From positions 1 through 54,059 of the IMG/VR virus record IMGVR_UViG_3300033150_000652: 54,059 nucleotides of DNA; one strand, given 5' to 3'. Position numbers and translations under genes: made by a program. The DNA comes from a virus (taxonomy: Duplodnaviria; Caudoviricetes). The notes below the pieces were generated by a model. That model was not told the origin of the DNA. It saw nothing but the letters and a program-made list of their open reading frames with translations, and made no database searches. Shown here one piece after another: positions 10,916 to 49,155 of this stretch. Position 1 is the stretch's first letter; the number at the start of each line of letters is the position of its first letter.

Positions 10916-12301
10916 CTAAAAGTTAAACGGACTTCGCCATCGTGCTCTACGTTTCCTCTTGATGATGCCGTAATGGTCTACTAAGGCGTAAATCAGGGCC
11001 TTAATACTATCGCAATATCTATCTATCGGTTTATCGCTGACTGGCTTCCCCTCTTTATCTTTGGGATATTGATACAGCCCGAATTCCTTGAATATTCCCT
11101 TACAAGCAGGATTAAACTTAACCCTGGGCCTTCCATCGGCGGGGTTCTTCAAAAATGTATGTAAAACATATATCCCGTCTTTTATCATCACGGGTCGGGA
11201 TACAACTGGTATGCTCGTTAACGCTGACCAGACTTCAATCGGCGCTTTCCCCGCCTGGGCGTGCTGCCTGCCTCCAAAGTGGCATATCACAATCTTATCT
11301 ACCTTCTTCCACCAGGGCTTTAACTTACAGGCGTAAATTACCTCCTCATGCACCATCTTTTGCAAATACAATTCGTCAATGACTTCCACATCATTGCCAT
11401 AAAACTGCATGGCTAAGCAGGCGTAATAACTTCCACCCGCATCACCCCTGTATCCTGGGTCTATAGCCAGCACAACGTCTTCTTTCTCGTTAAACTTAAC
11501 GTCAAATGATACGTGAGTGGCATAATCGAATTCTGGGAACACGACCGTAGCGGGTGGACAGGGCACGGCACCGCATCTTTCCATGAACATGGCATGGGTG
11601 TACATCTTCTCCAGTTTGATTATCTCTGGGTCTTCTCTACCCCCTGGGTATATCTTGGTATTTGCCCAGGAGGGGATGGAGAAACTTACCCCGCCCTCAA
11701 AGTTATCGCCCTGCCATCTTTTCCATAAATCAACGTACCAGCCGAAACTTCCCTCGAAGGTTCCTATCAATAATAACCAGCCCCGCTTTTCAGCCACCCT
11801 ACCGACTAACCTCAAGTACGTTTCTTCCGTCATCTGGGCAGCCTCGCACATAAGAATCCCATCGGGGGCTTTCGCTGCCAGTTTAACAGGGTCTTCCGCC
11901 GTTTTCGTCTCCAGGGTAACGCCAGTCTTAGTTATTAAAGTACATGGCCCCTGCCTAGGCCAGGAGATAGTCTGTATGTATGCTTCGTGAAACCTCTTCA
12001 GCCATTCCACTACGTAAGTGAATTCTGGCCTTGTTAATTCATATGTCTGCGCTACTAACCAGTATAGCGCTCCTGGGGGAGCAAACAGTATATCTGAGGC
12101 TAACTCCGCTGCCCCACACAAACTCTTTCCCGCTCGCTCTCCCCCAGCAACTAACCTATTCCGCTCATTACATTTATGCACAGGAATCTGACCCTCATGA
12201 GGGTCGTATCCAATCCTATCGAATACACGTAGTTTGTCTTCAAACGAAGCATACATTATCTGCCTGCGAGAAAGGTATCTCTTAATATTGGGGGCGGACA
12301 A
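10916..12301 (-). CDS. terL: Terminase large subunit
   Basis: YDPHEGQ Q-motif, Walker A AGGERAGKS, Walker B-like ILMCEAAQ, RNase H-like AIDPGY and VIDELY. Confidence 0.92.
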   Translation of the reverse strand: MSAPNIKRYLSRRQIMYASFEDKLRVFDRIGYDPHEGQIPVHKCNERNRLVAGGERAGKSLCGAAELASDILFAPPGALYWLVAQTYELTRPEFTYVVEWLKRFHEAYIQTISWPRQGPCTLITKTGVTLETKTAEDPVKLAAKAPDGILMCEAAQMTEETYLRLVGRVAEKRGWLLLIGTFEGSFGWYVDLWKRWQGDNFEGGVSFSIPSWANTKIYPGGREDPEIIKLEKMYTHAMFMERCGAVPCPPATVVFPEFDYATHVSFDVKFNEKEDVVLAIDPGYRGDAGGSYYACLAMQFYGNDVEVIDELYLQKMVHEEVIYACKLKPWWKKVDKIVICHFGGRQHAQAGKAPIEVWSALTSIPVVSRPVMIKDGIYVLHTFLKNPADGRPRVKFNPACKGIFKEFGLYQYPKDKEGKPVSDKPIDRYCDSIKALIYALVDHYGIIKRKRRARWRSPFNF

Positions 12302-27321: not shown

Positions 27322-27505
27322 GGAATGCAAAGTCTGTAAAGCGATAGAAGAACACCTCGGCGAAGTGGAAACGGAATGTTCCGCCTGCCACGGCGAGCGG
27401 GTAGTCGAAGCATGGATACCGCTGGATGATTTGATAGCATATGCACTTGCACGATTGCGAGTTATACAGAAGATGGAGAACGATGAATGCCCAAGCCACG
27501 AGTAA
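27302..27505 (+). CDS. Small zinc-binding protein
   Basis: CKVC...CSACHG; SD GGGAG. Confidence 0.55.
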   Translation: MEIKVRKECKVCKAIEEHLGEVETECSACHGERVVEAWIPLDDLIAYALARLRVIQKMENDECPSHE

Positions 27506-28314
27506 TTGACCCTGCATTTTTTGACGATTTGGACATAGCAAGCCTTACCCGTGATGAACGGTTACTTATTACGGGCATGATAGCCAAATGCGCTGATGAC
27601 TATGGACGGTTACGAGCACACCCAAAGTATCTTCGCAAAGAGGTATTTGGCTACGATGAAGACATCACAGCCGAGGACGTAGCCATAATGCGGGAACACA
27701 TTATCGCACATTGGAAGAATATTTTGCTCTATACTGTCAATGGAGAAGAGTATTTTTATATCAAAAATTGGGACAAATTTCAGAAAATTCGTTACCGAGT
27801 TCCCAGTAAACTTCCGCCACCCCCTAGCGAACTCCCACAAAAATCAGAAGATGATTATTCAGAACCCGCGGGAGATTCTGCACAACTTTCGCGCGAAATT
27901 AGCGACAATTTTGCGGAAAATTCGCACCAATTTAGCGCTAAAGTTACGCCAAATTCCCCTAGAGTAGTGTTGAGTAGTGTAGAGAAGAGTAGTCGTAGTG
28001 TAGAGTTAAACACACAAAACGACGACAACCACAACAAATCACCACCTCTTGATGACATAACGATGAGCGTTTCAAGAGAATGGGCTAAAGCACGTGGGGG
28101 ATTAGTCAACTCCCTTGATGCCGAGATGCTTGAGGAACTTGAGCAAGAGTATGGCCCGCAATGGGTGCTGGACGCCATTCGAGAGGCGAATAAATCACGC
28201 ACACGGGGAAGGGCCATCAACCTGAAATTCGTGGAAAGTATCCTGCAACGCTGGAAACAAGAGGGCAAAGATAGCCAATTCCGACCTGCGGGGAAAATCA
28301 AATGGCTGAAGTAG
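27487..28314 (+). CDS. Replication initiator with DnaD-like C-terminal domain
   Basis: R.I.P.FF.D...ADDYGR N-terminus; NLKFVESIL.RW..EG C-terminus; upstream of dnaB. Confidence 0.8.
   Translation: MPKPRVIDPAFFDDLDIASLTRDERLLITGMIAKCADDYGRLRAHPKYLRKEVFGYDEDITAEDVAIMREHIIAHWKNILLYTVNGEEYFYIKNWDKFQKIRYRVPSKLPPPPSELPQKSEDDYSEPAGDSAQLSREISDNFAENSHQFSAKVTPNSPRVVLSSVEKSSRSVELNTQNDDNHNKSPPLDDITMSVSREWAKARGGLVNSLDAEMLEELEQEYGPQWVLDAIREANKSRTRGRAINLKFVESILQRWKQEGKDSQFRPAGKIKWLK
27883..28005. repeat. Putative replication origin (iterons inside the initiator gene)
   Basis: Imperfect palindromes at 27883, 27906 and 27928 (~22-bp period), then GAGTAGTGT repeats. Confidence 0.55.
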
Positions 28315-29606
28315 GTTCACCGCTGAAAAATTTAGAGATTGAGCAGGCGCTGTTGGGTTCGCTCCTCATTGACGGCAGTCGTATCTTCGAGGTCTGCACT
28401 GTCATAGAGCCTGACGACTTTGCCTCGTCTACCCACAGCACTATCTATAGCGCTATGCTGGATATTGCTCATGCGGGGAAGGAGATAGACTTGCTAGTCC
28501 TTTCGGACGAGTTGGAGCGTCAGGGGAAACTAGCCAAACTAGGGCATAAAAATATCCACGGCGCGGCCTATATCTCCTGGTTACCAACGGTTACTCCCAC
28601 GTCCGTTCATGCTGTACACTATGCCAAGACGGTGCGGGATTATGCTCTCCGTCGGCGATTGCTCAACGTGGCTCAGAAGATTGTTACCGCTAGCCACGAT
28701 AGCGATTCGGGGGAGCAGGCATTAACTCAAGCGCTCACCTGGCTCAATGCCGTTAACCAACACGCCACGGTTAAATTACAGCCCATCTCAGAGGCGGTGG
28801 ATGAGTTTACCGTCAGGCTTACAGACTGGCTAGAGAGACCCCGTGAAGTATGGGGTCTCTCCACGGGCCTCAAAGACTTGGATGAGTTGACAGGGGGATT
28901 GGAGCAGGGAGAATTCGTCATTATCGCTGGTCGTCCTGGGATGGGCAAATCCAGTCTGGCTCTTCAGATCGCACGCCATGTGGCAGAAGAGGGACATGGT
29001 GTGGTATTCTTCAGTTTGGAGATGAGCATAAACCAACTGATGATGCGCCTCACCTGTTCTGGGGCTAAAGTAGATAGTGGGCTGGTTAGGCGAGGCAAAT
29101 TGAGTGAATACCAACGGGAGAAATTGTGGGATGAACTGCTTGAGATTCAACGATTACCTCTTTGGTGGTGTTGCCATTCCAATATCACGACGAGAGAAGC
29201 CACAAACGAAGTGGCACGACTACAAACGCAACATGATATAGCGCTGGTGATATTTGATTATATCCAGTTGGCACGGGCCAAAGGTGAAAGCCAGAACATC
29301 AGAGTTAGCAAGATTAGCCAGGGACTTAAGCACCTAGCAGTTACTCTGAACGTGTGTGTAGTTGGCGTGTCCCAATTGAGCCGTGCTATCGAGTCGCGGT
29401 TAGACCCAGAACCGAGACTATCGGATTTGAGAGATAGCGGCTCACTGGAACAGGATGCGGATAAGGTGATATTCCTACACCGCAACAAAGATGACAAAAC
29501 CGTACAGGTGATATTGGCGAAAAACAGGAATGGGGCAGCAAATATTGGGTTGAGGCAATTGGTGTTCTTACCAGAGTACACAATGTTTGGGGAGATTATG
29601 AAATGA
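28302..29606 (+). CDS. dnaB: Replicative DNA helicase
   Basis: AGRPGMGKS, FSLEMS, DYIQL, SQLSR, DLRDSGSLEQDAD, KNRNG. Confidence 0.97.
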   Translation: MAEVGSPLKNLEIEQALLGSLLIDGSRIFEVCTVIEPDDFASSTHSTIYSAMLDIAHAGKEIDLLVLSDELERQGKLAKLGHKNIHGAAYISWLPTVTPTSVHAVHYAKTVRDYALRRRLLNVAQKIVTASHDSDSGEQALTQALTWLNAVNQHATVKLQPISEAVDEFTVRLTDWLERPREVWGLSTGLKDLDELTGGLEQGEFVIIAGRPGMGKSSLALQIARHVAEEGHGVVFFSLEMSINQLMMRLTCSGAKVDSGLVRRGKLSEYQREKLWDELLEIQRLPLWWCCHSNITTREATNEVARLQTQHDIALVIFDYIQLARAKGESQNIRVSKISQGLKHLAVTLNVCVVGVSQLSRAIESRLDPEPRLSDLRDSGSLEQDADKVIFLHRNKDDKTVQVILAKNRNGAANIGLRQLVFLPEYTMFGEIMK

Positions 29607-43194: not shown

Positions 43195-44032
43195 CTGTTA
43201 ATCCTCCCCATATTTCCTGATGTTTCTTGGCCCAGTTATCCCATGTGAAGTCCGTTAAATCCCTGCGCGGGCCATGTTCTTCAACTAATGCCTCCAATGT
43301 GCCGATTAAATCCTCTGTAGTCCAATACTCAGCACAACCGAAATCCTTAGCAAATCCTATAGGTCTGCTTATGATAGGCACCCCGCATGCTAACGCTTCC
43401 AAAACCCCATGTGGCCCACCCTCGGCATAGGCAAGGCTCAGGTAGTAATCAAACTCCTGTATGTATCGAGGATAGTCCTCGTGCCTTGCTTCGGGCACAT
43501 AGGTTACCCTCACTCCATTTAAGGCCAGTGCGCCGACTATATGATCCCAGCCTGGCCCCACTATAATGAAGTGAAAGGGGCTTAAGTCCATGCGCCAGGA
43601 TAGTTCTATCAGGGTGTATTCACCCTTTCGCCCATTCACATAGGGCCTGCCCGTCAGTCCTATCCGAATGGGCCTGGGTTTAAACATCTTATCAATACCA
43701 GGATACACAACTGTTATCTTTTCTCCTGGTATCCCCAGTTCTATCAGGACATCCTTACTATGCCGAGAGGGGCACATAATGTGTACACATTTACCACATG
43801 CTGCGCGTGCTTTGTCCCCCCAATCTACATTGAGGTGCGTAAACCACATGGTAGCCACCGTAGGCGGGTCGTTATCTATTAGCGGATGCCAGAACAGGTA
43901 ATGGTTAATATCGGCTTCAGGGTCTGGCTTGGTATCTATGGTGATATTGTCCACCCGTTTGGCTATCTCACGAGCATATCGGTCTAGAATCCAGCCCTTT
44001 TCGTTGATGATAATATTAACTTTTGGCATCAC
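43175..44032 (-). CDS. Glycosyltransferase, GT-B/GT4-like
   Basis: VVYPGID, RKG, EGGPHGVLEALACGVPII. Confidence 0.88.
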   Translation of the reverse strand: MMPKVNIIINEKGWILDRYAREIAKRVDNITIDTKPDPEADINHYLFWHPLIDNDPPTVATMWFTHLNVDWGDKARAACGKCVHIMCPSRHSKDVLIELGIPGEKITVVYPGIDKMFKPRPIRIGLTGRPYVNGRKGEYTLIELSWRMDLSPFHFIIVGPGWDHIVGALALNGVRVTYVPEARHEDYPRYIQEFDYYLSLAYAEGGPHGVLEALACGVPIISRPIGFAKDFGCAEYWTTEDLIGTLEALVEEHGPRRDLTDFTWDNWAKKHQEIWGGLTDEMQSD

Positions 44033-44906
44033 CCACCTCGGCTAGGATTTCCCTCAATTCCTGGATAGCCCCAGCCTCATTGTCACCCTGCCTGCGTAGG
44101 CTTTCTATCTGTTGTTCGATGGTCTTTTGCTGTTCCAGGAGTTTTTTGATTTTTAATTTGATGCCCTCTAACTGCTTCTCGTGTCCTCGTAGTCTTAGTT
44201 CCAAATTCTTTTTGTCCATTTTACCTCCCCTCAGTTTCCATACTTCAAAGAAATATCTTGCCAATGCAATATCCGCTCTCTGCTTCCGATAATGCTCAAA
44301 GCCTATCGGGATGTGCAGAAAGTGTCCACACCTTAAACCACAATCCATCCAGATGTCTATGCCCGCTTTCCGCACGTAGTAACAGAACCTCAAGTCAGCC
44401 CCAATTCTTTTCTGCCCATGCCAGGCTTCGGGCATAGCGCCGTCCATTACGAATGGTGCATCCCCAATGAGTGGCTTCACCGCCTCAAATACCGAACGGT
44501 GCACCAGGAAACAGCCCCAACCTGTAGCCCCTACTTTGATTAGCCCTTCGTCAGGGAAATCTATAAGAGGAAGCATAGGCCAGTTGAAATCGGGGTCATT
44601 CTCATATGCGATGGGAAAGCAAGGATTGAGTTGTCGGCGGAAGTATAATCCGCTTATCGCTTGTTTCTTATGTGAGAGCAATCTCTCTAGTGTATCGGGA
44701 GGGAATTGCATGTCCCCATCCAGATACAGGATGTAATCGTGTTTGCTCTGCAGAAATTGTTCCGTTAGTTGTTGTCTGGATATATCTCCCCTGGAGGAAT
44801 GGCGTAGCATTATCTGGTCTTCGTTGCTTCGACGGATGTTGACAATGCTGGTATATGCCTCCATGTTGGTTATAACCGCTGTCGCTATGCCGATGAAAAC
44901 GCTCAT
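44016..44906 (-). CDS. Glycosyltransferase, GT-A/GT2-like, with C-terminal coiled coil
   Basis: YILYLDGDM (DxD), LERLL, GWGCFLVHRSVFE, GADLRFC. Confidence 0.85.
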   Translation of the reverse strand: MSVFIGIATAVITNMEAYTSIVNIRRSNEDQIMLRHSSRGDISRQQLTEQFLQSKHDYILYLDGDMQFPPDTLERLLSHKKQAISGLYFRRQLNPCFPIAYENDPDFNWPMLPLIDFPDEGLIKVGATGWGCFLVHRSVFEAVKPLIGDAPFVMDGAMPEAWHGQKRIGADLRFCYYVRKAGIDIWMDCGLRCGHFLHIPIGFEHYRKQRADIALARYFFEVWKLRGGKMDKKNLELRLRGHEKQLEGIKLKIKKLLEQQKTIEQQIESLRRQGDNEAGAIQELREILAEVGDAKS

Positions 44907-45368: not shown

Positions 45369-45752
45369 TTATTCGCCAATGGCGAGCAAGGAGACGATGA
45401 TGTTCCCCACCGTAGTACCAGTAGAGTAAATCTGGTCAAGGTTGAAATGTATGATGTCGCCCGCATCGGCGGTGTTGTAGTGCATGTCCGCTCCAGATAC
45501 GGTGGCCGTAGCCGCGACGGTGCTCACTGCCACCGTAACCGTCGCTGCTGTCCAGCAATCTGAACCCGCAATCTCCATCATCACTTGCGAAGCCGTGGTA
45601 ACCGCTGTGGTTGACGGCTTGGCATAAATGGATAGATGGTCAATGCGGAGACTGCAAGGCGCAACGAACCCCGCAAGGTCATCACCTTCACTGGCACCCA
45701 GGTCAAACGTCCAGAGCAACGGTTTGCCTACATAATCATATGTTGCAGCCAT
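45369..45752 (-). CDS. Putative capsid decoration protein
   Basis: Small beta-rich A/T/V protein immediately after the capsid gene. Confidence 0.6.
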   Translation of the reverse strand: MAATYDYVGKPLLWTFDLGASEGDDLAGFVAPCSLRIDHLSIYAKPSTTAVTTASQVMMEIAGSDCWTAATVTVAVSTVAATATVSGADMHYNTADAGDIIHFNLDQIYSTGTTVGNIIVSLLAIGE

Positions 45753-45762
45753 TCTATCCTCC

Positions 45763-48430
45763 TTAACTCAAGTCGTTCACGTGCTCTAACCGAACGTACC
45801 AATTGTCATTCAGGGACTTGCAATCGTGTGATGCTTTCCAACCCACGCTACCACGTAGGTTCAATGGGTTGTCCGCCCCACCAGAGTCCACTGGCTTGAC
45901 AATCAGTTCCACCGGCCTTACACGTTGACCCGTCATGGTGTGTTCCTCAGTGCCCGCCGTGTCTACTTCCTGCGGTAACGTATTGCCTATGCCAACTATA
46001 CCGTAGGCTTCTTTCAATCTGTTACCCCCCATTTGGGTGGATAGGTCATTTCTGCCTATCTCTCATGGTTTCCCATGAGTTCGGACTATCCCTTGGATTT
46101 GACAATCCCGCTCATTATAGTCTCTGAACGTTCCCCATTTCTGAGGCTTCGCTGCGGGTTACCCAATCCTTAGCCTTTTTAAGCATTCGCGCTTATCCTT
46201 TCGGATTACGCTGTAGCGGCTAAGGCTCTAAGGGCGTTCCTGCAATTTCGAGCGTTTTGCATCGGCAAAGAATTTTCACCGATGAACAGCATGGCATAGA
46301 CATCAGCGTTACTTGCACCTCCATCCGTCCACTCTTTCACATTCGAGGACATGTAGAAGTCGCAGTTCAAGAACGACCCAATGTATCCTGTCTTCATCGG
46401 GTTGCTCTCATCCCGCGCATACGCGCCCTCGAAAGCATTCCGCTCTGTTACTTGTGAACCCTTTCGGGCGGGCTAGTCATTTCTGCTAGCCTCTCATGGT
46501 TTCCCATGAGTTCGGACTGTCGCTTCACCTTGCGGTGTCCCCTCGCTCAACGAGCATTAACATAGTGCATATTCATTTTATAATCAAACATAGGCAACAC
46601 ATATGGACGGATAATATCAAACAGTTTTTGGCCCTCTTTGGCCCCCATTCCCAATACCCAATATTTACCCTTATGCCTCGAAATGCGAGTTGAAATTCCA
46701 AATCGCTCGGTTAGAAACTCTCGCATAATTTCATGTTCTTCACGGCTGAAAGCCTGGGTATGGAAATGAATTTCTCTGCTTTTGGGAGACTTGCGTCCCG
46801 ATGTCAAAACTCGATAGTGGATGGTTAACGAACCATCATCCATATACCAATATGCCAATCCTTGTGCATCCAATGGCATCAGGGCCTGCAAACTTATTGT
46901 TTTTCTTCCATTAGGATACCACCGTTTGCGCAATTTGGTATAGATAGGATGCGTGCGTGTCTCGGCAATTATTGTACCATATCCCCACCCATTATCAGGG
47001 ACCTCTCGCACATTTACGTGCGTTATCTCACGCAAAATAGCCACTTTGTGTAAAAGATACGAGCGTTGTGAGGGACTATGCTGTAGTTTAAGCATCGCAT
47101 GACGCCCCCCGTGGGATACTACAAGGCTTGCATCTCCCAAAATCATACCCGTCAATATGTTCAGCGGAACGGACACTATATGCCCTCCTTTTGCTGCTAT
47201 GTTAATGTCTCTAGTCTCTGCCCCTAGTTCGGAATCAATTCCCATCAGCATCTGCTGACCCTTGGGTCGGGTTGCCATGCGCTTTAGCGTTTAGGCTTTC
47301 CCGTTATTCAGAGGGGATTTAACGTTCCCGAATGCTAAGCGGCCAGGAACGACGGGTCCTGCATTAGAGTTACCCACAATCTGTTACTTGTTAACCCTTT
47401 CGGGCGGATAGGTCATTTCTGCCTATCTCTCCACCTTCACCGTTAGGTTATACGTGGAGTTCGGACTATATCATCACCCACTTGGGGTGCCCCGCTCATA
47501 GTCTCTACACACGCCCACCTTTCGGCTGCTTGGCTCGGTATTACCCTCCTCAGGGCTTCCACCGAATTCACGGGGTTTTCCACCGCATATTGCTACGCGG
47601 CGCACCTGGTTAAACAAGTGTCGGGATGAAGTATCGCCACATACCGCGCCCCCTCCACTGGCAGGGCATCGTTCGCCATAAGCGTGCCCAGGGCCTTCAC
47701 TACGTCCGTATAAGAAATCTTATCGTTCGTAGTATCCAGCCCCGTTCGAGCCGTAGCAGTCCCCGAATACTGCACAGAACCGTTTGCCACTAGGACATCG
47801 CGGGTGAGAGTGTCAATAGACAATCCGCACTGCTCGCCTAGGATAGCACTGAAGTTCTGAAGTATCGGGTCAATGCTGGTCAACTCAAGCACATCGCTAT
47901 GGCGTAGATAGTACCCGTACCAAGAGGGCGTGGCCGTAACCTTCGTAACGCTGGCGCTACCCGCTGCTGGCGTCTGGCCCTCGGTAAGAGCCGTAGTAGT
48001 CGCGCTCAAGGCACCGAACTTACGCCATTGAAGTTTGTTACCCTCATTCTTGTTAATGGTCGCCTTGACCCCCCACCGCCCATGAATGAGCCGTGGTAAC
48101 GCACGGGTCAAGAGTCGCATTTCGTAGTCAATCTGTTACCCCTCGGTTATATTCAGTTTATTAAAGTTCCGAGTGGGCTGGTCATTTCTGCCAGCCTCTC
48201 CACCTTCACTGTTAGGTTATACGTGGAGTTCAGACTATATCATCATCCCAGAGGGATGCTCCCCGCATAGTCGTTACACACGCCCGCCTTTCGGCTGCTT
48301 GGCTCGGTATTACCCTCCTCAGGGCTTCCACCGAATTCAGGGAGTTATTGCCCCATAGTTGCCTATGGGCGACGCACTATCCGTACGTCCGCATTTCATT
48401 GCTAAGCGTACTGGTTGTCTCCGTAGCCAT
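45763..48430 (-). CDS. Major capsid protein (N4-gp56 type), five exons: 48385-48430, 47617-48128, 47345-47376, 46278-46440, 45763-46014; 334 aa spliced
   Basis: Joins give EMRTY/YEMRLL, ILHPDT/WVTLMQDPSFL/NAF and LFIG/KEAYG; family motifs LTEG.TP, YVAILHP and NPLN.RG.VGWK; 1005 nt in frame. Confidence 0.92.
46015..46277 (-). ncRNA. Group I intron 4 (263 nt)
   Basis: P1 caucggU/Gccgaug, P10 aaagaa/uucuuu, P aauugcaggaa, Q aacccgcagc, R uucagagacua, S gggauaguc. Confidence 0.92.
46441..47344 (-). mobile_element. Group I intron 3 (904 nt) carrying a homing endonuclease
   Basis: P1 cguuccU/Gggaacg, P10 gaaugcu/agcauuc, R gcagagacu, S gcgacaguc. Confidence 0.92.
46547..47176 (-). CDS. LAGLIDADG homing endonuclease (two-motif), intron-encoded
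   Basis: LTGMILGDASL and LAYWYMDDGS; GTG at 47176 after AAGGAGG. Confidence 0.92.
   Translation of the reverse strand: MSVPLNILTGMILGDASLVVSHGGRHAMLKLQHSPSQRSYLLHKVAILREITHVNVREVPDNGWGYGTIIAETRTHPIYTKLRKRWYPNGRKTISLQALMPLDAQGLAYWYMDDGSLTIHYRVLTSGRKSPKSREIHFHTQAFSREEHEIMREFLTERFGISTRISRHKGKYWVLGMGAKEGQKLFDIIRPYVLPMFDYKMNMHYVNAR
47377..47616 (-). ncRNA. Group I intron 2 (240 nt)
   Basis: P1 cacU/Ggug, P10 ugg/cca, R guagagacua, S gauauaguc; core nearly identical to intron 1. Confidence 0.9.
48129..48384 (-). ncRNA. Group I intron 1 (256 nt)
   Basis: P1 gacgU/Gcguc, P10 acua/uagu, R guaacgacua, S gauauaguc, terminal G. Confidence 0.92.
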
Positions 48431-48483
48431 TCTAAACCTCCTTCAAGTGTTTCCCCCAGTACGCTTTTACGCATACTGGGTTG

Positions 48484-49155
48484 TTAAACTGGTATCTCGT
48501 CTTTGCTTAGTTTCCCCGAAGCACCCTGTCGGAATATCTCCTCCATTTCCTCCCAGGAGAGTTCCTTCCAGGAACGCCTCTTGGAAACCCTGCGTGGGAC
48601 ACCACTAGCAACCTTCGGGGGTTCCGCACGTCGGCCAGTACGACGGTCTTTCAGCCAATCCATAGCAGAACGCTGCATGGCTTCAGGACTGGAGTAATCC
48701 AGTTTGTCCTTCGGGATGCCGTATTCTTGGCTATACCATTCCGCCATCGAATCGCGATAAGCACGCGCTTGCTCTAAAGCCTGAAGTTGGGCGGCCTGTT
48801 GCTGAGTTTGCAGAGCAATATTGCGATAATACTCTGCCAACTGCCTGGCCTCCTCAAGTTCCGCCTGCTCCCGCTCCGCTGGCGTAAGGCTAGCATAATA
48901 CTGCTCCCGTAGACGCTGTTGCAAACTCGCCAATTGCTGCTGATACACGGCAAGTTGCCTCTGGTACTCCGCCTCCCGCTGCCTGAATTGCTGTTCCGTC
49001 TCATGTGCCTTGCGCTGGAACGTACTCTTCAGTTTGTTGATGTCCTCTTGCAGTTTAGCAACTTGCGCCTGAGTGTCTTGGGCGTCAACTTCGGGCGTCG
49101 CCTCTTGTACTTCTTCGGCAACCCCTTCGTTAACCCCTACCACTTCCTCTGGCAT
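48484..49155 (-). CDS. Scaffolding protein (putative)
   Basis: Acidic N-terminus and Q/E-rich coiled coil, immediately upstream of the capsid gene. Confidence 0.75.
   Translation of the reverse strand: MPEEVVGVNEGVAEEVQEATPEVDAQDTQAQVAKLQEDINKLKSTFQRKAHETEQQFRQREAEYQRQLAVYQQQLASLQQRLREQYYASLTPAEREQAELEEARQLAEYYRNIALQTQQQAAQLQALEQARAYRDSMAEWYSQEYGIPKDKLDYSSPEAMQRSAMDWLKDRRTGRRAEPPKVASGVPRRVSKRRSWKELSWEEMEEIFRQGASGKLSKDEIPV

What the first reader, a model, noticed from the sequence alone, without database searches (positions are those of the whole stretch)
45763..48430. Major capsid gene split by four group I introns, including a 32-nt micro-exon
Every junction has a U-G pair in P1, a P10 pairing with the next exon and a terminal G. 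Splicing restores a continuous 334-aa N4-gp56-type capsid protein. Introns make up 1,663 of 2,668 nt and each introduces an in-frame stop if retained, so the most abundant virion protein needs four self-splicing events. Phage group I introns are best known in DNA-metabolism genes; multi-intron genes exist (e.g. phage Twort), but four in a capsid gene is exceptional to my knowledge. Splicing could gate capsid output on GTP/Mg2+ status (inference).
Basis: partly seen in the sequence, partly recalled or inferred. Interest (0 to 1): 0.92.

Follow-up and report, generated by a model that had tools for sequence, protein, structure and literature searches.

The report
Phage capsid gene with four introns
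The only major capsid gene of this complete 54-kb phage genome is cut into five pieces by four related self-splicing-type (group I) introns, a real but already documented kind of arrangement that must be spliced out of the RNA before the virus can build its shell.

Summary
On the minus strand, 48430..45763 holds five exons (46, 512, 32, 163 and 252 nt) and four introns (256, 240, 904 and 263 nt).

- **Product:** the joined 334-aa protein aligns with 62 intronless N4-gp56-type capsid proteins, with no gap at any junction.
- **Splice signals:** all four junctions have a U.G pair in P1, a P10 of 3-7 bp and a terminal G.
- **Rfam RF00028:** I4 scores 53.1 bits and I1 51.0 (both over the cut-off), I2 41.5 and I3 only 14.8.
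- **I3:** it carries a 666-nt insert with an I-SceI-like LAGLIDADG gene. Its 3' domain matches I4 and a model built from I1+I2.
- **Family:** the same intron lineage sits at other sites of this capsid gene in 7 of 121 related loci, with strong covariation.

Splicing itself is not shown, because no RNA run was listed.

"Exceptional" is overstated. A crAss-like capsid gene in five fragments, capsid introns in LittleE and Tuc2009, and intron-dense Jug phages are in print. This scan has also noted multi-intron capsid genes on other DNA. GTP/Mg gating is untested.

Verdict: new member of a known kind, moderate interest.

The parts
48437..48444 (-). Shine-Dalgarno-like GAAGGAGG, 6 nt before the capsid ATG
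   Evidence: Read directly from the sequence.
48385..48430 (-). Exon 1 (46 nt; codons 1-15 plus one base)
   Evidence: tblastn: residues 1-15 of homologues P0001-P0005 match 48430..48386. The P1 register in the Rfam alignment agrees. U.G pair at the junction.
48129..48384 (-). Intron 1 (256 nt, no ORF), group I
   Evidence: RF00028 51.0 bits, cut-off 50, E 4.3e-10. P1 GACGU|AC with GU[G]CGUC, P10 of 4 bp, terminal G. 47 of 47 modelled pairs are standard.
47617..48128 (-). Exon 2 (512 nt)
   Evidence: tblastn E 2e-67 to P0002. TIGR04387 112.7 bits, profile positions 15-193.
47377..47616 (-). Intron 2 (240 nt, no ORF), group I, close paralogue of intron 1
   Evidence: RF00028 41.5 bits (below the cut-off of 50), E 3e-07 in the window. 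88.6% identical to I1 over 167 nt. P1 CACU|UG with CA[G]GUG, P10 of 3 bp, terminal G.
47345..47376 (-). Exon 3, the 32-nt micro-exon (WVTLMQDPSF plus two bases)
   Evidence: tblastn 47376..47347 to residues 185-194 of P0003. No gap in the 62-homologue alignment.
46441..47344 (-). Intron 3 (904 nt): a group I core of about 238 nt plus a 666-nt insert (47210..46545) between the P7 5' strand and the P3 3' strand
   Evidence: RF00028 only 14.8 bits, E 1.9. My model R1 scores the 3' part 46441..46571 at 46.1 bits. 88% identical to I4 over 50 nt. P1 of 6 exon pairs plus U.G, P10 of 7 bp, terminal G. P3 UCCCCUC (47317..47311) pairs with GAGGGGA (46544..46538). P8 is CACC-GCAA-GGUG at 46537..46526.
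46547..47176 (-). LAGLIDADG homing-endonuclease gene inside intron 3. Likely start is GTG 47176, 7 nt after AAGGAGG (47190..47184). The longest ORF starts at ATG 47278.
   Evidence: Pfam PF03161 E 4.8e-36 over residues 6-185 of the 209-aa form. PHROG 11023 E 7e-18. PDB: 6x1j E 3.8e-14, I-SceI E 4e-10. The start site is read from the sequence.
46278..46440 (-). Exon 4 (163 nt)
   Evidence: tblastn E 4e-19 to P0003. TIGR04387 profile positions 213-263.
46015..46277 (-). Intron 4 (263 nt, no ORF), group I
   Evidence: RF00028 53.1 bits, E 1e-10. R1 55.2 bits. P1 CAUCGGU|GAA with UUU[G]CCGAUG, P10 of 6 bp, terminal G.
45763..46014 (-). Exon 5 (252 nt including the TAA stop)
   Evidence: tblastn E 8e-26 to P0003. 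TIGR04387 profile positions 272-323.

Best explanation
The single N4-gp56-type (HK97-fold family) major capsid gene of this complete 54,059-bp phage genome with direct terminal repeats is interrupted by four group I introns of one related lineage.

Proposed mechanism:
1. The gene is transcribed with the other minus-strand structural genes.
2. Each intron folds into the group I core.
3. Each intron removes itself by the standard two-step guanosine-initiated transesterification: attack at the U.G pair of P1, then exon ligation after the terminal G, guided by P10.
4. This yields an mRNA for a 334-aa capsid protein.

Intron 3 carries an I-SceI-like double-motif LAGLIDADG homing endonuclease. It presumably cuts intron-less capsid alleles of co-infecting relatives and copies the intron in. 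Introns 2 and 4 lie only 32 and 163 exon bases away and can ride along by co-conversion.

The four copies are mosaics. They share core or tail modules, but each has its own guide sequence.

Shown here (computationally): the boundaries, colinearity of the product, ribozyme-core homology and covariation, and the endonuclease family.

Inferred: transcription, actual self-splicing, endonuclease activity and its target, and co-conversion.
For: - **Genome:** a complete virus record with terminal repeats.
- **Colinearity:** 62 intronless homologues of 310-345 aa align with no junction gap.
- **Capsid family:** TIGR04387 hits on exons 2, 4 and 5 fall in colinear profile order.
- **RF00028:** I4 53.1 and I1 51.0 bits (at or above the cut-off of 50), I2 41.5 bits with E 3e-07.
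- **Splice signals:** 4 of 4 junctions have U.G, P10 and a terminal G.
- **Stops:** an in-frame stop follows 2-23 codons into each retained intron.
- **Paralogy:** I1/I2 are 88.6% identical over 167 nt and I3/I4 88% over 50 nt. I1 versus I2 is 34% identical in P1-P2, 89% in the core and 30% in the tail.
- **My model R1 (built from I1+I2):** it finds I4 (55 bits), the I3 3' part (46 bits) and introns in capsid genes of relatives: L113, L082, L083, L009, L084, L115 and L116.
- **Covariation on 9 of these introns:** 92.2% of cells are paired against 60.9% in shuffles (0 of 500 reach it). 39 of 47 pairs change on both sides. Slid controls give 39-43%.
- **Endonuclease:** PF03161 E 4.8e-36 and I-SceI-like by sequence.
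- **Print precedent for spliced capsid introns:** PMC3706429 and PMC7886860.
Against: - No RNA evidence: no sequencing run holding this stretch was listed, so splicing is inferred.
- Intron 3 scores only 14.8 bits on RF00028. Its two halves searched alone give no RF00028 hit.
- R1 does not recognise the I3 5' half on its own. Its P7 has only 4 clean pairs by my reading, and its 666-nt insert sits in an unusual place.
- Intron 2 is below Rfam's cut-off and has a short P1 (3 exon pairs plus U.G) and a short P10 (3 bp).
- The covariation alignment was fitted to the model, and the I3 and I4 rows in it are partial.
- The intron subgroup was not determined.
Confidence: 0.85

Rival explanations
1. 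The inserts are group I introns, but not all are autonomous. Intron 3 (insert inside the core, weak P7) and perhaps intron 2 (short P1 and P10) need a protein helper. That helper could be the LAGLIDADG protein acting as a maturase, or a host RNA chaperone. Capsid yield would then depend on that factor.
For: I3 scores 14.8 bits on RF00028, and its halves alone give no hit. I2 scores 41.5 bits, below the cut-off of 50, with P1 and P10 of 3 bp each. That some LAGLIDADG proteins act as maturases is established knowledge (recalled); the Fig. 3 legend in PMC7886860 calls LAGLIDADG an 'intron-encoded endonuclease maturase'.
Against: All expected helices of I3 can be drawn, including a perfect 7-bp P3 and a 7-bp P10. 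The I2 core is 89% identical to that of I1, which passes Rfam's cut-off. Phage group I introns studied so far mostly self-splice in vitro (recalled).
Confidence: 0.2
2. One reading: the four introns are kept because splicing acts as a regulatory gate that ties capsid production to the cell's GTP/Mg2+ or translation state.
For: In-frame stops lie 2-23 codons inside each intron. This fits the known coupling of T4 intron splicing to translation (Sandegren and Sjoberg 2007, seen only as a reference entry).
Against: 112 of 121 related loci have uninterrupted capsid genes, so the introns are dispensable for this capsid family. Presence of a homing endonuclease and variable insertion sites point to selfish spread instead.
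Confidence: 0.08
3. The capsid gene is a dead, insertion-riddled pseudogene in a defective or mis-assembled genome, and no functional capsid protein is made from it.
For: Introns make up 62% of the gene. There is no expression data.
Against: All five exons are free of frameshifts and stops and are 54-57% identical to the five best-matching full-length homologues over the full length. The ribozyme helices keep pairing through compensatory changes. The record is a complete genome with terminal repeats. No second copy of this capsid gene was sought or seen. The boundaries obey group I rules at 4 of 4 junctions.
Confidence: 0.03

Closest known systems
MCP gene of crAss-like phage, Zeta group (cMAG OLRF01000054; Yutin et al. 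2021, PMC7886860; passages read)
   Same: A major capsid gene split into five fragments by four intervening segments, with group I intron-type domains in the spacers. A metagenome-assembled phage, with splicing inferred.
   Different: [quoted passage not shown] Its introns were recognised through encoded protein domains in three of four spacers. Here the genome is 54 kb, Rfam and my model R1 found introns only in the capsid gene, three of four introns have no ORF, and splice sites are defined to the base.
Staphylococcus phage Twort orf142 (three group I introns in one gene; Landthaler and Shub 1999; seen only as a reference title)
   Same: Several ORF-less group I introns in one phage gene. 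The title reports exon skipping by the ribozymes.
   Different: Three introns rather than four. Gene identity and intron subgroup (IA2, recalled) were not compared here. Twort splicing is shown experimentally.
Mycobacteriophage LittleE capsid intron and lactococcal phage Tuc2009 capsid intron (Pope et al. 2013, PMC3706429; passages read)
   Same: An intron in the major capsid gene carrying a LAGLIDADG-like endonuclease ORF, with U at the exon end and G at the intron end. The authors argue splicing must be very efficient, given the hundreds of capsid copies needed per virion.
   Different: One intron per gene, with splicing proven by RT-PCR and N-terminal sequencing. Its endonuclease ORF lies on the opposite strand. 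The capsid family is unrelated.
Jug (jumbo gut) phages (PMC12880540; passages read)
   Same: Many small (about 206 nt) group I introns interrupting essential phage genes. Splicing of 37 of 76 was supported by metatranscriptome reads.
   Different: 360-402 kb genomes. The examples given are terL, nrdD and DNA polymerase, not a four-intron capsid gene.
I-SceI and PDB 6x1j 'probable intron-encoded endonuclease 1'
   Same: The intron-3 ORF matches them over about 190 residues (E 4e-10 and 3.8e-14). It is a single-chain enzyme with two LAGLIDADG motifs.
   Different: I-SceI sits in a yeast mitochondrial rRNA intron. Activity and target of the phage protein are unknown.

Membership tests
Group I catalytic intron (Rfam RF00028) | Conserved core (P3-P9) scoring at or above the family's gathering score of 50 bits | tested here: inconclusive
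   Met for I4 (53.1 bits) and I1 (51.0 bits). I2 scores 41.5 bits, below the cut-off but E 3e-07. I3 scores 14.8 bits, E 1.9. So 2 of 4 pass, 1 is near, and 1 fails because of its 666-nt insert.
Group I catalytic intron (Rfam RF00028) | Last exon base U forming a U.G wobble inside P1 with an internal guide sequence | tested here: met
   4 of 4 junctions. The positions were fixed independently by protein colinearity.
Group I catalytic intron (Rfam RF00028) | Terminal G (omega G) and a P10 pairing of the guide with the 3' exon | tested here: met
   4 of 4 introns end in G. P10 is 4, 3, 7 and 6 bp.
Group I catalytic intron (Rfam RF00028) | Helices maintained by compensatory change among relatives | tested here: met
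   9 introns (4 from the window, 5 from related loci): 92.2% paired against 60.9% shuffled, 39 of 47 pairs with changes on both sides, slid controls 39-43%. Caveat: the alignment was fitted to the model.
Group I catalytic intron (Rfam RF00028) | P7 helix with the guanosine-binding site | tested here: inconclusive
   GACUAU/AUAGUC is present in I1, I2 and I4, from the Rfam alignments and motif positions. I3 has only GACU/AGUC. The binding-site base pair itself was not examined.
Group I catalytic intron (Rfam RF00028) | Self-splicing with exogenous guanosine and Mg2+ | not testable with these tools
   No RNA run was listed. Needs a bench assay.
N4-gp56 family major capsid protein (NCBIfam TIGR04387; Pfam PF25209) | Whole-protein score at or above the curated cut-off (60 bits), covering the profile colinearly | tested here: met
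   Exon 2 alone scores 112.7 bits (profile 15-193), exon 4 covers profile 213-263 and exon 5 covers 272-323. The intronless homologue P0002 scores 160.7 bits. Homologues carry PF25209. The joined protein itself could not be handed to the family tools.
LAGLIDADG homing endonuclease (Pfam PF03161) | Domain match above the cut-off, and two LAGLIDADG motifs with acidic residues | tested here: met
   124.7 bits against a cut-off of 25. The motifs ...GMILGDASL... and ...YWYMDDGSL... were read from the translation. Cleavage activity is not testable here.

The most novel reading that the evidence does not exclude
One group I intron lineage, marked by a conserved CAGAAAUGA loop on P9.1 and a GUAACAG-type 3' tail, has specialised on this capsid-gene family. 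It has moved to at least ten different codon positions by swapping only its guide (P1-P2) and tail modules, while the core is exchanged between copies within one gene. That pattern would best fit reverse-splicing-type retargeting plus recombination rather than classical homing. In this phage the single LAGLIDADG enzyme of intron 3 would then drive all four introns into naive genomes as one block. If so, this 54-kb phage is a compact natural system for watching group I introns acquire new sites.
Probability: 0.3. Interest if true: 0.65.

Novelty: new member of a known kind. Interest (0 to 1): 0.45.

Why it matters
A virion needs hundreds of capsid subunits, so four ribozymes must all work efficiently on the most highly demanded late mRNA. 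Any failure gives a truncated protein. That makes this gene a stringent natural test of how well phage group I introns splice in vivo.

The case also has practical weight for annotation. Gene callers report this capsid gene as fragments: the database holds only a 175-aa piece of it. Rfam's single group I model missed every related intron that I gave it from other loci.

The family-level picture is the part with research value. Related introns sit at about ten sites of one capsid family, with mosaic modules and individually matched guides. It offers material to test how ORF-less group I introns reach new sites.

It does not open a new category. Multi-intron capsid genes are already in print, and this scan has noted them on other DNA.

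Tried and rejected
- **RNA evidence:** The look-up of sequencing runs on 45700-48500 listed no run ('none was listed', no RNA holder listed). Read laying was therefore never used.
- **Contigs of truncated homologues:** I reached some of those contigs through the search for related loci instead.
- **Close relatives:** single-protein scans for close relatives of exon 2 found none in viral contigs or metagenome contigs. Alignment queries worked.
- **I3 halves:** Rfam searches of the two halves of intron 3 alone gave no RF00028 hit. R1 with filters off on the I3 5' half gave nothing meaningful, best 0.1 bits.
- **Rfam on interrupted relatives:** L029, L082 and L072 and L084, L113, L115, L116 and L117 gave 0 matches. 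L009 and L083 were not given to Rfam.
- **P8-loop idea for I3:** I first placed the I3 ORF in the P8 loop. I rejected that once the R1 alignment showed a complete P8 hairpin after the ORF.
- **Split terminase:** I suspected a split terminase gene because the PHROG match starts at profile position 264. I rejected this because the 461-aa ORF contains its own Walker-A-like GERAGKS.
- **Host inference:** homologues in MAG bins come from five unrelated taxa and give no host.
- **Not followed up:** the two-piece match in L072 and the nature of the L117 insert, which no RNA model hit.
- **Not done:** The intron subgroup (IA/IB/IC) was not determined; the subgroup models cited in PMC12880540 are not on hand.
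- **Supplements:** supplementary tables of the cited papers were closed. They may list further multi-intron capsid genes.
Full report
**What is there**

The window is a complete virus record of 54,059 bp with direct terminal repeats. The finding lies on the minus strand. A Shine-Dalgarno-like GAAGGAGG precedes an ATG at 48430. No single ORF spans the region: the ORF list shows only fragments, the largest a 175-aa piece and a 243-aa LAGLIDADG ORF.

**Exon-intron map**

A search with the 164-aa central piece, set to look at longer proteins, gave 64 relatives. Most are 330-343 aa, many carry Pfam PF25209, and some are named 'N4-gp56 family major capsid protein' by their source. tblastn of the five best against the region gave five colinear pieces. 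Combining these with the P1 register of the Rfam alignments gives:

| Part | Coordinates | Length (nt) |
|---|---|---|
| E1 | 48430..48385 | 46 |
| I1 | 48384..48129 | 256 |
| E2 | 48128..47617 | 512 |
| I2 | 47616..47377 | 240 |
| E3 | 47376..47345 | 32 |
| I3 | 47344..46441 | 904 |
| E4 | 46440..46278 | 163 |
| I4 | 46277..46015 | 263 |
| E5 | 46014..45763 | 252 |

- Exons total 1,005 nt (334 aa plus stop) and introns 1,663 nt.
- In an alignment with 62 full-length homologues (64 minus one of 289 aa and one of 408 aa), the joined protein shows no gap at any junction. It is 54-57% identical to the five best-matching of them.
- NCBIfam TIGR04387 (N4-gp56 family major capsid protein) matches exon 2 alone at 112.7 bits against a cut-off of 60. 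It matches exons 4 and 5 at successive parts of the profile.
- Reading into any intron meets a stop after 2, 7, 3 or 23 codons.

**Are they group I introns?**

- **Rfam.** RF00028 matches I4 at 53.1 bits and I1 at 51.0 bits, both over the gathering score of 50. It matches I2 at 41.5 bits (E 3e-07 for the whole window) and I3 at only 14.8 bits. Nothing else in the window matches at E up to 0.1.
- **Splice signals.** At all four junctions the last exon base is U, paired with G inside a P1 helix. P10 pairs the guide with the next exon (4, 3, 7 and 6 bp). Every intron ends in G.
- **Paralogy.** I1 and I2 are 88.6% identical over 167 nt. I3 and I4 are 88% identical over 50 nt. The I2 tail resembles the tails of I3 and I4. 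Along the I1/I2 alignment, identity is 34% in P1-P2, 89% in the core and 30% in the tail, and the last seven bases are identical. The copies are therefore mosaics with individual guide sequences, as another first-reader note on this stretch had suggested.
- **My covariance model R1.** I built it from I1+I2 with a hand-set structure: 47 pairs, all standard in I1 and 45 of 47 in I2. R1 finds I4 at 55 bits and the 3' part of I3 at 46 bits.

**Intron 3**

- Its low Rfam score comes from a 666-nt insert (47210..46545).
- Upstream of the insert lie P1, the P3 5' strand UCCCCUC, the P4-P6 region and a CAGAGACUAG stretch that matches the J6/7-P7 sequence of I4.
- Right after the insert come GAGGGGA (a perfect 7-bp P3 partner), a P8 hairpin CACC-GCAA-GGUG, the P7 3' strand, P9, P9.1 and the tail.
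- The insert holds an ORF with Pfam LAGLIDADG_2 at E 4.8e-36. Its closest solved relatives are 6x1j and I-SceI.
- AAGGAGG lies 7 nt before an in-frame GTG at 47176. This gives a 209-aa protein that starts where the Pfam match starts and lies wholly inside the insert.
- The place between P7 and P3' is where subgroup IA introns carry P7.1/P7.2. That is recalled, not tested.
- The weak points of I3 are a P7 of only four clean pairs, and no hit when its halves are searched alone.

**Relatives**

- **Truncated database proteins.** Seven proteins of 116-236 aa break off at conserved capsid positions, which hinted at introns elsewhere.
- **Loci examined.** I examined 121 related loci: 80 from IMG/VR, 36 from metagenomes and 5 from genome bins.
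- **tblastn exon maps.** Interrupted capsid genes appear in L029, L082 and L083 among the 80 and in L084, L113, L115, L116 and L117 among the 36.
- **L009.** The exon map missed it. R1 hit it, and DNA comparison with its intron-less relative L024 shows an 834-nt insert after base 47 of the coding sequence. That is the same codon as I1 here and one base later, with its own U.G pair and terminal G.
- **Overall count.** 9 of 121 loci are interrupted. Some loci of the two collections may be the same contig. The 5 genome-bin loci were checked only with R1.
- **R1 hits.** R1 hits 7 of the 121 at E up to 0.01 (L113, L082, L083, L009, L084, L115, L116) and L029 weakly. It does not hit L117.
- **Rfam.** It found none of the eight loci I gave it.
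- **Multi-intron relative.** L116 has two inserts, each with a LAGLIDADG-like ORF, before its contig ends. The L029 insert carries a LAGLIDADG_1 ORF.
- **Insertion sites.** In the numbering of the window's protein they are about 15/16, 42/43, about 51, 83, 87-88, 117/118, 184/185, 186/187, 196/197 and 251/252.
- **Covariation.** On nine of these introns aligned to R1, 92.2% of cells pair against 60.9% in shuffles (0 of 500 reach it). 39 of 47 pairs change on both sides, and slid controls give 39-43%. The alignment is fitted to the model, so this leans towards the structure.

**How it most likely works**

The pre-mRNA is made with the neighbouring minus-strand structural genes. Each intron self-splices by the guanosine pathway and the joined mRNA encodes the capsid protein.

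The early stops in each intron would release ribosomes before they enter the ribozyme core. This fits what is known for T4 introns (recalled; the paper was seen only as a reference entry).

The I-SceI-like enzyme of I3 probably cuts intron-less alleles near the E3/E4 joint. Homing is frequently accompanied by co-conversion of flanking markers (review PMC3984707, passage). I2 (32 nt away) and I4 (163 nt away) would therefore be carried along. All of this paragraph is inference.

**Comparison with what is known**

- Capsid-gene introns are in print: LittleE, shown by RT-PCR, and Tuc2009 as cited there (PMC3706429).
- A crAss-like Zeta-group MCP gene in five fragments, and 'typical' MCP introns in the Delta group, are described in PMC7886860.
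- Jug phages average 18.5 group I introns per genome, with 37 of 76 supported by RNA reads (PMC12880540).
- Twort orf142, with three introns, was seen only as a reference title.
- My four paper searches found no description of this N4-gp56-type capsid family as an intron target. I did not see supplements.
- Notes of this scan report capsid genes with three to six introns on other DNA. I did not check those.

**Verdict**

The reading as four group I introns is well supported computationally (about 0.85) but unproven at the RNA level. The claim of exceptionality is overstated, and the regulatory idea is untested. This is a new member of a known kind. Its side value is as a compact example of one intron lineage spreading over many sites of a capsid-gene family.

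Noticed in passing
L009:4110-4991: A relative with only about 55% capsid identity carries an 834-nt insert after base 47 of its capsid gene. That is the same codon as intron 1 here but one base later, with its own matched guide (GACGCU against GGGCGUC) and a terminal G. No intact ORF over 71 aa was seen on its plus strand.
   Followed up: partly
L116:2024-4000: A metagenome relative has two capsid-gene inserts (about 915 and 951 nt) at sites not used in the window. Each has a LAGLIDADG-like ORF, one on the opposite strand. The contig ends at the position of the window's intron 4, so more may exist.
   Followed up: partly
46471..46491, 46041..46059, 47403..47425, 48167..48200 (minus strand): All four introns, and those of L113 and L084, keep a nine-base loop (CAGAAAUGA, or CCAGAAAUGA in L084) on a P9.1 stem whose sequence covaries. 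Most also end in a GUAACAG-type tail. This may be a tertiary-contact motif marking the lineage.
   Followed up: partly
L029, L082, L084, L113, L115, L116, L117: Rfam RF00028 found none of the capsid-gene inserts in these relatives, even at E up to 0.1-1. A two-sequence model from this window found six of the seven. The L117 insert (about 850-980 nt) matched neither, so its nature is unknown.
   Followed up: partly
47184..47190 and 47174..47176 (minus strand): AAGGAGG lies 7 nt before an in-frame GTG inside intron 3. This suggests the endonuclease starts there (209 aa) and not at the upstream ATG 47278, whose first 34 codons would overlap P5-P7 of the ribozyme.
   Followed up: partly
44016..44906 (minus strand): A glycosyltransferase-like gene (PHROG 12406/34859, E about 1e-8) sits among the structural genes just downstream of the capsid gene.
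   Followed up: no
whole window: 13 of 20 large ORFs tested had no PHROG match at E up to 0.001, including the 1,018-aa, 607-aa and 905-aa structural-block proteins. Recognised were TerL (10916..12301), a DnaB-like helicase (28302..29606) and a replication initiator (27487..28314).
   Followed up: no
L120-L124: Capsid homologues occur on contigs binned into MAGs of five unrelated groups (Puniceicoccaceae, Acidiferrobacteraceae, Ignavibacteriales, Anaerolineales, Dojkabacteria). These are probably phage contigs swept into bins, so they give no host clue.
   Followed up: no
L072:4075-4098: The capsid match is in two pieces, with a 22-base offset and three missing residues. This could be a frameshift, a sequencing error or a very small insert.
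   Followed up: no
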